Shown here: one piece after another, positions 43,361 to 46,300 of the stretch
Position numbering within the stretch: the first letter of the stretch is position 1
How the letters are laid out: each line of letters opens with the position of its first letter
Assembly (NCBI RefSeq): GCF_054482595.1
Contig: NZ_CM137008.1
DNA: 64,000 bases
Reading direction: 5' to 3' (one strand)
Position numbers: made by a program

Positions 43361-46300
43361 GTCATCCTCTCAGACCAGCTAGGGATCGTCGCCTTGGTGA
43401 GCCGTTACCCCACCAACAAGCTAATCCCATCTGGGCACATCCGATGGCAAGAGGCCCGAAGGTCCCCCTCTTTGGTCTTGCGACGTTATGCGGTATTAGC
43501 TACCGTTTCCAGTAGTTATCCCCCTCCATCAGGCAGTTTCCCAGACATTACTCACCCGTCCGCCACTCGTCAGCAAAGAAGCAAGCTTCTTCCTGTTACC
43601 GTTCGACTTGCATGTGTTAGGCCTGCCGCCAGCGTTCAATCTGAGCCATGATCAAACTCTTCAATTTAAAAGTTTGATGCTCAAAGAATTAAACTTCGTA
43701 ATGAATTACGTGTTCACTCTTGAGACTTGGTATTCATTTTTCGTCTTGCGACGTTAAGAATCCGTATCTTCGAGTGCCCACACAGATTGTCTGATAAATT
43801 GTTAAAGAGCAGTTGCGACGCGGCTTTCAGCTCACTGTCGCGAGGTGGCGTATATTACGCTTTCCTCTTTCAGAGTCAACCCTGAATTTCAGGATTTTTC
43901 TCTTCAACCGAACTGGCTGTTTGTGTGAAGTGATTCACATCCGCCGTGTCGATGGAGGCGCATTATAGGGAGTCGGCTCAGGAAGACAAGCGGAAAAATG
44001 CATTTTTATTTCAATCGCTCATCTTTTAATCATTGCGCCGGTTTTTGCTGCTTTTTTATCGCTTGCGGCAGGTCTGCCAGGCTATTTAACACCCAATCTG
44101 CCGCGTTTTCTGCTTCAGGTGTAATAGGTTTACCCGTACGCACCAGCACTTTTGTTCCCACGTTCGCCGCAACCGCTGCCTGCATATCTTCTAATTTATC
44201 GCCCACCATATAAGAAGCGGCCATATCAATATGCAAATAATCGCGTGCTGACAAAAGCATCCCCGGATGTGGTTTGCGGCAATCGCAGACCTGGCGAAAC
44301 TCTTCAACACTACCCTGCGGATGATGCGGGCAATAATAGATACCATCCAGATCGACATCTCGGTCCGCCAGCGACCAGTCCATCCACTCGGTCAGCGTTT
44401 CAAACTGTGCTTCGGTAAATTTACCGCGAGCAATGCCAGACTGGTTGGTTACTACCACCAGCGCAAAGCCCATTTTTTTTAGCTCGCGCATGGCGTCAAT
44501 AACACCGTCGATAAATTCAAAGTTGTCGATCTCATGGACATAGCCGTGATCGACATTAATAGTGCCGTCACGGTCAAGAAAAATTGCGGGTACGCTCTTC
44601 GCCACCTTTTATAGCTCCTTAATAAGGCATGTGACGCTAGTATCGCATGTTTCGACCTGCAAGAAAGTGCTCTTCGCATAAACCTGATTGATTTAGACGT
44701 CTGGATGCCTTAACATCCATTTCATTGACGGCGTTGCCCGTTTCAGGCATTCGAGATGCCACGACTAACTTAATGACGATAATAAATAATCAATGATAAA
44801 ACTTTCGAATATCACCAAAGTGTTCCACCAGGGCACCCGCATCATCCAGGCGTTGAACAACGTCAGCCTGCATGTGCCAGCTGGACAAATTTATGGCGTT
44901 ATCGGTGCCTCAGGCGCGGGTAAGAGTACGCTTATACGTTGTGTAAACCTGCTGGAGCGCCCAACCGAGGGTAGCGTGCTGGTCGATGGCCAGGAACTGA
45001 CCACGCTGTCAGAATCCGAGTTGACCAAAGCTCGTCGCCAGATTGGTATGATTTTCCAGCATTTTAACCTGCTCTCTTCGCGTACTGTTTTTGGCAACGT
45101 GGCTCTGCCGCTGGAGCTGGACAATACACCGAAAGACGAGATCAAACGTCGCGTGACGGAATTGCTGTCATTGGTTGGTCTTGGCGATAAGCATGATAGC
45201 TACCCGTCGAATCTTTCCGGTGGGCAGAAACAACGTGTGGCGATTGCCCGTGCATTAGCCAGCAATCCCAAAGTATTGCTGTGTGATGAAGCCACCAGCG
45301 CGCTGGACCCGGCAACGACACGTTCTATTCTCGAACTGCTGAAAGACATCAACCGCCGTCTGGGTTTGACGATTCTGTTGATCACCCACGAAATGGACGT
45401 TGTGAAGCGTATTTGTGATTGCGTGGCGGTCATCAGCAATGGCGAACTAATCGAGCAGGACACGGTAAGTGAAGTGTTCTCACATCCGAAAACGCCGCTG
45501 GCGCAGAAGTTTATTCAGTCAACCCTGCATCTGGATATCCCGGAAGATTACCAGGAACGTCTGCAAGCGGAGCCATTCACTGACTGCGTGCCGATGCTGC
45601 GTCTGGAGTTTACCGGTCAATCGGTCGATGCCCCACTGCTTTCTGAAACCGCGCGTCGTTTCAACGTCAACAACAACATTATTAGCGCGCAGATGGATTA
45701 CGCCGGTGGCGTGAAGTTCGGCATCATGCTGACTGAAATGCACGGCACACAACAAGATACGCAAGCCGCCATTGCCTGGCTGCAGGAACACCATGTAAAA
45801 GTAGAGGTACTGGGTTATGTCTGAGCCGATGATGTGGCTGCTGGTTCGTGGCGTATGGGAAACGCTGGCAATGACCTTCGTATCCGGATTTTTTGGGTTT
45901 GTGATTGGTCTGCCGGTTGGCGTCCTGCTTTATGTCACGCGTCCGGGGCAAATTATTGCTAACGCGAAGCTGTATCGTACCGTTTCTGCGATTGTGAACA
46001 TTTTCCGTTCCATCCCGTTCATTATCTTGCTGGTATGGATGATTCCGTTTACCCGCGTTATTGTCGGTACATCGATTGGTTTGCAGGCAGCAATTGTTCC
46101 GTTAACCGTTGGTGCAGCACCGTTTATTGCCCGTATGGTCGAGAACGCTCTGCTGGAGATCCCAACCGGGTTAATTGAAGCTTCCCGCGCAATGGGTGCC
46201 ACGCCAATGCAGATCGTCCGTAAAGTGCTGTTACCGGAAGCGTTGCCGGGTCTGGTGAATGCGGCAACTATCACCCTGATTACCCTGGTCGGTTATTCCG

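What the first reader, a model, noticed from the sequence alone, without database searches (positions are those of the whole stretch)
44695..44718. Tandem MetJ boxes upstream of metNIQ
An exact AGACGTCT metbox is followed directly by two degenerate 8 bp repeats (GGATGCCT, TAACATCC), fitting the tandem arrangement needed for cooperative MetJ-SAM binding. MetJ repression of the metD (metNIQ) locus is established.
Basis: partly seen in the sequence, partly recalled or inferred. Interest (0 to 1): 0.2.

Follow-up and report, generated by a model that had tools for sequence, protein, structure and literature searches.

The report
Known MetJ operator at metN promoter

Summary
The window is E. coli, and across this intergenic region it is identical to K-12 MG1655.

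A lone AGACGTCT is not significant (1 found, 0.56 expected). The three-box array is. It scores 20.43 bits with the published MetJ matrix and is the top site in the 64 kb window. A site that strong appeared in 1 of 500 shuffles.

The same 24-mer, with the same box count, score and gap, is listed for metN (b0199) in Table S1 of Augustus & Spicer 2011. That paper measured 20-fold MetJ-dependent repression of an Ec.metN-lacZ fusion. ΔmetJ transcriptomes in E. coli and Salmonella also show metNIQ de-repressed.

A published metNIQ transcription start (K-12 222714 = window 44724) places the boxes at -29 to -6. They lie between a TTGATT -35 and over a TAACAT -10, which implies promoter occlusion.

The block 44687-44718 is the best-conserved part of the intergenic region in 114 distinct Enterobacterales sequences. 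One nuance: box 3 doubles as the -10 and fails the MetJ threshold in 31% of lineages, so boxes 1-2 are the secure core.

Verdict: supported, already known, low interest.

The parts
44695..44702 (.). Metbox 1, AGACGTCT, exact consensus (12.58 bits); position -29..-22
   Evidence: In 114 orthologous sequences it is AGACGTCT in 93, AGCCGTCT in 15, GGACGTCT in 5 and AGACATCT in 1, all strong metbox variants.
44703..44710 (.). Metbox 2, GGATGCCT (4.22 bits); position -21..-14, in the promoter spacer
   Evidence: Orthologues carry GGATGCCT, AGACGCCT, AGATGCCT and similar. Substitutions at its positions 1 and 4 move towards the consensus, while the non-consensus C at position 6 is invariant.
44711..44718 (.). 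Metbox 3, TAACATCC (3.63 bits, just above the 3.15 per-box threshold); position -13..-6; overlaps the -10 hexamer
   Evidence: It passes the per-box threshold in 79 of 114 orthologous sequences and fails in 35 (TACCATCC, TAGCATCC). TAnCAT is invariant.
44688..44693 (+). Inferred metN promoter -35 hexamer, TTGATT (4/6)
   Evidence: It lies 17 bp from TAACAT. TTG is invariant, and the hexamer is TTGACT in Serratia, Hafnia and Rahnella. Its position fits the published TSS.
44711..44716 (+). Inferred metN promoter -10 hexamer, TAACAT (4/6)
   Evidence: It ends 7-8 nt before the published TSS. TAnCAT is invariant in all 114 sequences.
44724..44724 (+). metNIQ transcription start (+/-1 nt)
   Evidence: SMRT-Cappable-seq gives the TSS of operon b0199|b0198|b0197 at K-12 222714, reverse strand (PMC6131387 supplementary file 4). 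It was converted using the 241-nt exact identity of the window to K-12.
44724..44792 (+). metN 5'UTR, 69 nt
   Evidence: There is no Rfam family match and no unusual folding.
44793..45824 (+). metN, methionine ABC transporter ATPase
   Evidence: ORF; annotated as metN.
45817..46470 (+). metI, permease
46510..47325 (+). metQ, substrate-binding lipoprotein

Best explanation
44695-44718 is the MetJ operator of the metNIQ (metD) methionine-uptake operon. When S-adenosylmethionine is plentiful, MetJ dimers carrying SAM as co-repressor bind the tandem 8-bp metboxes side by side. There is one dimer per box, and neighbouring dimers stabilise each other. The array spans -29 to -6 of the metN promoter, filling the spacer after the -35 (TTGATT) and covering the -10 (TAACAT). 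Bound MetJ therefore keeps sigma-70 RNA polymerase off the promoter and shuts down transporter synthesis. Shown here: the sequence, its statistical strength, its identity to the catalogued site, its position relative to a published TSS, and its conservation. Taken from the literature: MetJ-dependent repression in vivo. Inferred: promoter occlusion as the mechanism, the hexamer assignments, cooperativity at this site, and occupancy of box 3.
For: The array scores 20.43 bits, is the top site in the window, and was matched by 1 of 500 shuffles. It is identical to the published K-12 metN metbox entry, including the 74-nt gap. The window is identical to K-12 over 241 nt here. The 400-bp upstream fragment gave a repression ratio of 0.05 in wild type versus ΔmetJ, and it holds no other array passing the thresholds. 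metNQI is up in E. coli ΔmetJ, and metN has log2FC 4.27 in Salmonella ΔmetJ. The published TSS at 222714 equals window 44724, which puts the boxes at -29..-6. Block 44687-44718 shows 0.94-0.97 identity in 114 distinct Enterobacterales upstream regions, against 0.3-0.6 in the flanks. That includes the spacer, which promoter function alone would not conserve. 111 of 115 orthologues have an array passing the thresholds 72-85 nt from the ATG. The other four keep an exact box 1. Substitutions in boxes 1-2 stay within, or move towards, the metbox consensus. The 44-mer is identical in 5349 of 5353 matching E. coli genomes. Firmicute homologues lack metboxes and carry a SAM riboswitch instead.
Against: I could not retrieve a footprint or a readable EMSA result for metN. 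The gel-shift figure is an image, and the 2002 and 2006 primary papers are not held. Boxes 2 and 3 are weak (5/8 and 4/8). Conservation of box 3 is confounded with the -10, and it fails the matrix threshold in 31% of lineages. The promoter hexamers match only 8/12, below the scan tool's cut-off, so the tool did not list them. The TSS comes from one high-throughput data set and is uncertain by about 1 nt.
Confidence: 0.93

Rival explanations
1. The real MetJ operator is only two boxes (44695-44710). The third repeat, TAACATCC, is conserved because it is the -10 hexamer, not because a third MetJ dimer binds it.
For: Box 3 varies at its third base (A, C or G). MetJ strongly prefers A there (721 of 832 half-sites), whereas the third base of a -10 hexamer tolerates change. 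TAnCAT is invariant, yet box 3 fails the MetJ threshold in 35 of 114 sequences. Two boxes suffice for functional operators such as metC and ybdH/mtnE.
Against: In E. coli, box 3 passes the published per-box threshold (3.63 against 3.15) and is counted as a box in the published table. In Serratia and Hafnia it is TAACATCT (5.86 bits), closer to consensus. The bases at 44717-44718 lie outside the -10 hexamer and are still 0.8-0.9 conserved.
Confidence: 0.25
2. The block is conserved only as a core promoter. MetJ's effect on metN is indirect or acts through another site.
For: The -35 and -10 hexamers lie within the conserved block. No site-resolved binding data were retrieved.
Against: The 17-bp spacer is as conserved as the hexamers, which promoter function does not require. 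The spacer holds an exact consensus metbox. No other array passing the thresholds lies in the 400-bp fragment that confers 20-fold MetJ-dependent repression. An array this strong arose in 1 of 500 shuffles.
Confidence: 0.03
3. The inverted repeat TGGATG-N6-CATCCA (44702-44719) followed by TTTCATT is an RNA hairpin, either a terminator or attenuator, or part of a SAM-sensing leader.
For: The terminator scan lists it. The 41-nt segment folds at -11 kcal/mol, z = -2.33. metNIQ homologues in Firmicutes are riboswitch-controlled.
Against: It lies at -22..-5, upstream of the metNIQ TSS, so it is not part of the mRNA. No + strand gene reads into it, since gmhB diverges from 44632. There is no Rfam match at E<=10. 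The symmetry is the expected by-product of adjacent palindrome-derived metboxes (GGATG and CATCC).
Confidence: 0.01
4. It is a chance resemblance with no function.
For: A single AGACGTCT is expected 0.56 times per window. About 0.6 arrays passing the thresholds are expected per window, and one such hit lies inside tssB.
Against: All the evidence listed under the best explanation: the score, the position, conservation across families of Enterobacterales, and the published repression.
Confidence: 0.01

Closest known systems
MetJ operators of the other E. coli met-regulon promoters (metA, metB/metJ, metC, metE/metR, metF, metK, mmuP, ybdH/mtnE)
   Same: They are tandem, contiguous 8-bp metboxes related to AGACGTCT and lie close to the regulated gene. 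All are scored by the same matrix.
   Different: metN has three boxes, and only the first is consensus. Its total of 20.4 bits is mid-range: metK 15.0, metC 18.9, metE/R 21.1, metF 25.0, metA 27.2, metB/J 31.2. Its third box doubles as the -10 hexamer, and box 2 carries an invariant non-consensus C.
Published metN (b0199) metbox site in Augustus & Spicer 2011, BMC Genomics 12:558, Table S1
   Same: Identical 24-mer, number of boxes, score (20.45 against my 20.43) and 74-nt gap to the start codon.
   Different: Nothing differs. This report adds the position relative to the TSS and a per-box conservation analysis.
SAM (S-box) riboswitch control of metNIQ-type transporters in Firmicutes
   Same: Both give SAM-responsive negative feedback on a homologous methionine ABC transporter.
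   Different: The Firmicute control is an RNA aptamer in the leader, not a protein repressor on DNA. It was found upstream of the Oceanobacillus homologues and is absent here.
Other ribbon-helix-helix repressor operators (Arc, Mnt, CopG) - from general knowledge, not tested here
   Same: Short repeated sites that overlap a promoter and are bound cooperatively by adjacent dimers through a beta-ribbon in the major groove.
   Different: The recognition sequences differ, and those repressors need no small-molecule co-repressor. MetJ needs SAM.

Membership tests
MetJ operator (metbox array) | Two or more contiguous 8-bp repeats related to AGACGTCT, with each box at least 1/4 of the consensus score and the total at least the consensus score (published criteria) | tested here: met
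   The boxes score 12.58, 4.22 and 3.63 bits, total 20.43, against thresholds of 3.15 and 12.58. A site this strong arose in 1 of 500 shuffles.
MetJ operator (metbox array) | Coincides with the site catalogued for this gene | tested here: met
   Identical to the Table S1 entry for b0199 metN, including the gap of 74. The window is identical to K-12 here.
MetJ operator (metbox array) | Overlaps the core promoter of a methionine-related transcription unit | tested here: met
   The published TSS at 222714 equals window 44724, so the boxes lie at -29..-6. The downstream genes are metN, metI and metQ. The hexamer assignment itself is inferred.
MetJ operator (metbox array) | Conserved in taxa that have MetJ and absent from homologous loci in taxa without MetJ | tested here: met
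   111 of 115 Enterobacterales orthologues have an array at the same place, and it is the most conserved block of the intergenic region. Oceanobacillus and Prevotella homologues have none, and Oceanobacillus has a SAM riboswitch instead. The literature reports metboxes at metNIQ in 159 of 164 species.
MetJ operator (metbox array) | MetJ-dependent repression of the downstream gene in vivo | not testable with these tools
   From the literature only: Ec.metN-lacZ repression ratio 0.05, metNQI up in E. coli ΔmetJ, and Salmonella metN log2FC 4.27 in ΔmetJ.
MetJ operator (metbox array) | Direct binding of MetJ+SAM to this DNA in vitro | not testable with these tools
   Augustus & Spicer ran gel shifts on the operator fragments, but the figure is an image and metN's result cannot be read from the text. 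The 2002 and 2006 primary papers are not held.
MetJ operator (metbox array) | The host genome encodes MetJ | not tested
   metJ is not in this window. The window is E. coli, and K-12 metJ is listed as b3938 in the paper's tables.
SAM riboswitch or other curated RNA leader | Match to an Rfam covariance model in the metN leader | tested here: not met
   No match at E<=10 in 44550-44900 on either strand.
Intrinsic terminator or attenuator | A hairpin plus U-run located within a transcript | tested here: not met
   The hairpin at 44702-44719 lies upstream of the TSS at 44724, and its tail TTTCATT is a weak T-run.

The most novel reading that the evidence does not exclude
Besides MetJ occlusion of the promoter, metNIQ may carry an undescribed post-transcriptional control element in its 69-nt leader. 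The candidates are the motifs CCACGG and ACGATAATAAATAA, conserved across Enterobacterales in a leader with no obvious Shine-Dalgarno sequence, and a 5'-proximal hairpin kept in structure but not in sequence in many genera. In parallel, the invariant non-consensus C in box 2 and the dual-use box 3 may tune MetJ affinity against promoter strength.
Probability: 0.12. Interest if true: 0.3.

Novelty: already known. Interest (0 to 1): 0.05.

Why it matters
It matters little beyond correct annotation. The site links SAM and methionine sufficiency to shut-off of high-affinity methionine uptake, and it is already in the literature and in regulon catalogues. The useful outcome is a clean confirmation with base-level architecture: boxes at -29..-6, the third box doubling as the -10, and the divergent gmhB promoter left clear. 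It also shows that a lone consensus 8-mer proves nothing, whereas the tandem array, its promoter position and its conservation do.

Tried and rejected
- **Exact 8-mer alone:** counting AGACGTCT is not significant, so I switched to the published weight matrix and array criteria.
- **Promoter scan:** the tool did not list the real promoter because TTGATT-17-TAACAT matches only 8/12. Its hit ATGCCA-16-GATAAT (44756-44783) would start transcription 2-3 nt before the ATG, and no recorded TSS for the operon supports it.
- **Primary papers:** Gál 2002, Merlin 2002 and Marincs 2006 are not held.
- **Cappable-seq TSS file:** only + strand rows were stored, so it gave the gmhB TSS but not the metN TSS.
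- **Gel-shift supplement:** it is an image without readable lanes.
- **PPTP-seq paper:** it does not mention metN.
- **Rfam:** a scan of the region found nothing.
- **RNAalifold on 22 leaders:** it gave no consensus structure because the hairpin region does not align. I replaced it with per-sequence folding.
- **Second matrix hit (7460-7475):** it lies inside the tssB coding sequence and is within the chance expectation.
- **Small upstream ORFs in the leader:** the ATG at 44773 ends in an ATGA overlap with the metN start, and there is another ATG at 44756. I rejected both because the 44773 ATG is not conserved, at 0-0.1 identity.

Full report
**Observation.** It lies in the 187-bp gap between gmhB (minus strand, 44030-44605) and a 343-codon ORF starting at 44793, which is followed by two more ORFs. 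A 2.5-kb query matched 5424 of 5426 complete E. coli genomes, where the genes are annotated gmhB, metN and metI. K-12 annotation confirms metN-metI-metQ. Over 44590-44830 the window is base-for-base identical to K-12 MG1655.

**Is it more than chance?** The consensus 8-mer alone is not: 1 match against 0.56 expected, and 44 of 100 shuffles had at least one. I therefore re-implemented the published MetJ information matrix and array criteria (PMC3228920 Table 3 and Methods). The three boxes score 12.58, 4.22 and 3.63 bits, total 20.43. All pass the per-box threshold of 3.15, and the array is the best site in the window. In 500 dinucleotide-preserving shuffles of the whole window, only one gave a site of at least 20.43 bits. 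About 0.6 weaker arrays passing the thresholds are expected per window. That accounts for the only other hit, at 7460-7475 (15.3 bits), which lies inside the type VI secretion gene tssB.

**Is it the known operator?** Yes. Table S1 of Augustus & Spicer 2011 lists for K-12 b0199 metN: 20.45 bits, 3 boxes, gap 74, 'agacgtctggatgccttaacatcc'. This is the same 24-mer, and the gap matches (44793 - 44718 - 1 = 74). The same paper fused the 400 bp upstream of metN to lacZ and measured a repression ratio of 0.05, wild type versus ΔmetJ. No other array passing the thresholds lies in that 400 bp. Independent transcriptomes agree: metNQI is up in E. coli ΔmetJ (PMC12977542), and metN has log2FC 4.27 in Salmonella ΔmetJ (PMC9239280). 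I could not obtain site-resolved binding data. The gel-shift supplement is an image, and the 2002 metD papers and Marincs 2006 are not held.

**Architecture.** The phylogenetic footprint suggested that TTGATT (44688-44693) and TAACAT (44711-44716), 17 bp apart, are the -35 and -10. That predicts a start near 44723-44724. SMRT-Cappable-seq lists the TSS of operon b0199|b0198|b0197 at K-12 222714 on the reverse strand (PMC6131387), which converts to window 44724, an A. With that +1:
- the -35 is at -36..-31;
- the boxes are at -29..-6;
- the -10 is at -13..-8;
- the leader is 69 nt.

The uncertainty is about 1 nt. The same table places the gmhB start one base from the Cappable-seq value (222805 against 222806). 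The boxes thus fill the spacer and cover the -10, which is the geometry expected for repression by promoter occlusion. The divergent gmhB start maps to 44632 on the minus strand. The boxes are 63-86 bp upstream of it, outside that core promoter, so an effect on gmhB is not expected. That last point is inference.

**Conservation.** To avoid bias, I retrieved loci with a degenerate DNA pattern for the MetN N-terminus, not with the operator.
- Of 115 loci whose product is at least 79% identical to E. coli MetN over the first 150 residues, 111 have an array passing the published thresholds 72-85 nt from the ATG.
- The other four keep an exact box 1 next to a weakened box 2.
- In an alignment of 114 distinct upstream regions, 44687-44718 is the most conserved block (0.94-0.97 identity per 8-nt window), while the flanks are at 0.3-0.6.
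- The promoter spacer is conserved as strongly as the hexamers. Promoter function alone would not require that, but a protein-binding site explains it.
- Substitutions in boxes 1 and 2 remain within, or move towards, the metbox consensus. Examples are AGCCGTCT and GGACGTCT for box 1, and AGACGCCT in Serratia, Hafnia and Rahnella or AGATGCCT in Kluyvera for box 2.
- Within E. coli, the 44-mer 44684-44727 is identical in 5349 of 5353 matching genomes. The surrounding 2.5 kb is only 95-99% identical in most genomes.
- As a negative control, the Oceanobacillus and Prevotella homologues caught by the same pattern have no array. The Oceanobacillus loci instead carry a SAM riboswitch on the same strand, 124-1208 nt upstream.
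- The literature reports metboxes at metNIQ in 159 of 164 MetJ-bearing species.

**Nuance on box 3.** Box 3 varies at its third base: TAACATCC in 67 sequences, TAACATCT in 11, TAACATTT in 1, TACCATCC in 25 and TAGCATCC in 10. MetJ sites almost always have A at that position (721 of 832 half-sites). The -10 pattern TAnCAT is invariant. Box 3 therefore passes the MetJ threshold in 79 of 114 sequences and fails in 35. Its conservation is at least partly due to its role as the -10. In E. coli it passes narrowly, so three dimers are plausible, but boxes 1-2 are the secure core. I give the two-box variant about 25%.

**Rival RNA readings.** The terminator-like hairpin TGGATG-N6-CATCCA (-11 kcal/mol, z = -2.33) lies at -22..-5, upstream of the TSS. 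It is the symmetry expected from adjacent metboxes. No Rfam family matches the region at E<=10, and the leader folds no better than shuffles (z = 0.34).

**Mechanism.** Established knowledge of MetJ, not tested here, is that it is a ribbon-helix-helix dimer that binds one 8-bp box per dimer. It needs SAM as co-repressor, and it needs at least two adjacent boxes because neighbouring dimers bind cooperatively. quotes the two-box requirement. Applied to this architecture, high SAM loads two to three dimers over -29..-6. RNA polymerase is excluded and metNIQ is repressed about 20-fold. When methionine and SAM fall, the promoter is freed. Occlusion, cooperativity at this site and box-3 occupancy are inferred.

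**Verdict.** The feature is already known, so interest is low (0.05).

Noticed in passing
window 44632-44652 (minus strand): This is the divergent gmhB promoter. Cappable-seq places a strong TSS at K-12 222806(+), which is window 44632 on the minus strand. The second conserved block of the intergenic region (44638-44652, 0.86-0.96 identity) reads TGcGATACT on the minus strand, an extended -10-like element 7 nt upstream of that start.
   Followed up: partly
window 44756-44789 (metN 5'UTR): Two leader motifs are conserved across Enterobacterales: CCACGG (GCCACGA in E. coli, 44758-44764) and ACGATAATAAATAA (44776-44789). There is no obvious Shine-Dalgarno sequence before the ATG. The scan tool's promoter-like hit ATGCCA-16-GATAAT overlaps them, but no TSS is recorded there. 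Their function is unexplained.
   Followed up: partly
orthologous loci, first ~34 nt of the metN leader (e.g. L007, L056, L085, L109); window 44727-44742 in E. coli: A 5'-proximal hairpin is kept in structure but not in sequence in many genera. The mean z is -1.53 over 99 distinct 5' ends, against 0.0 for the next 34 nt. It is strongest in Serratia, Hafnia and Rahnella, where a T-rich run follows it, and weak in E. coli (z +0.45). It could be an mRNA 5' stabiliser or an attenuator-like element. RNAalifold gave no consensus.
   Followed up: partly
window 44708: Box 2 carries a non-consensus C at its position 6 (GCCT). It is invariant in all 114 orthologous sequences, even where the rest of box 2 moves towards consensus. 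The equivalent base is seen in only 27 of 832 catalogued half-sites. It may tune MetJ affinity or reflect a promoter constraint.
   Followed up: no
window 7460-7475: A second, weaker metbox-like array, AGATGGCCAGACGGCT (2 boxes, 15.3 bits), lies inside the coding sequence of tssB in a type VI secretion cluster (hcp, vgrG, tssB, tssC). It is within the chance expectation of about 0.6 per window.
   Followed up: yes
window 46071 and 46430 (inside metI): SMRT-Cappable-seq lists two internal starts (K-12 221367 and 221008, reverse strand) that give metQ-only transcripts. If real, part of metQ expression would escape the MetJ operator. The window is collinear with K-12 across the operon, with 31 substitutions and no indels in 2401 nt.
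   Followed up: partly
L070 6077-6187, L088 971-1082, L092 3937-4047: Oceanobacillus homologues of metN, caught by the same N-terminal pattern, carry a SAM (S-box) riboswitch (97-100 bits) upstream on the same strand and have no metboxes. The same feedback logic is achieved at the RNA level.
   Followed up: yes
window 44756-44796: The leader contains two tiny upstream ORFs. One is ATG 44756-TAA 44773. The other is ATG 44773-TGA 44796, and its stop overlaps the metN start as ATGA. The 44773 ATG is not conserved (0-0.1 identity), so these are probably chance.
   Followed up: yes
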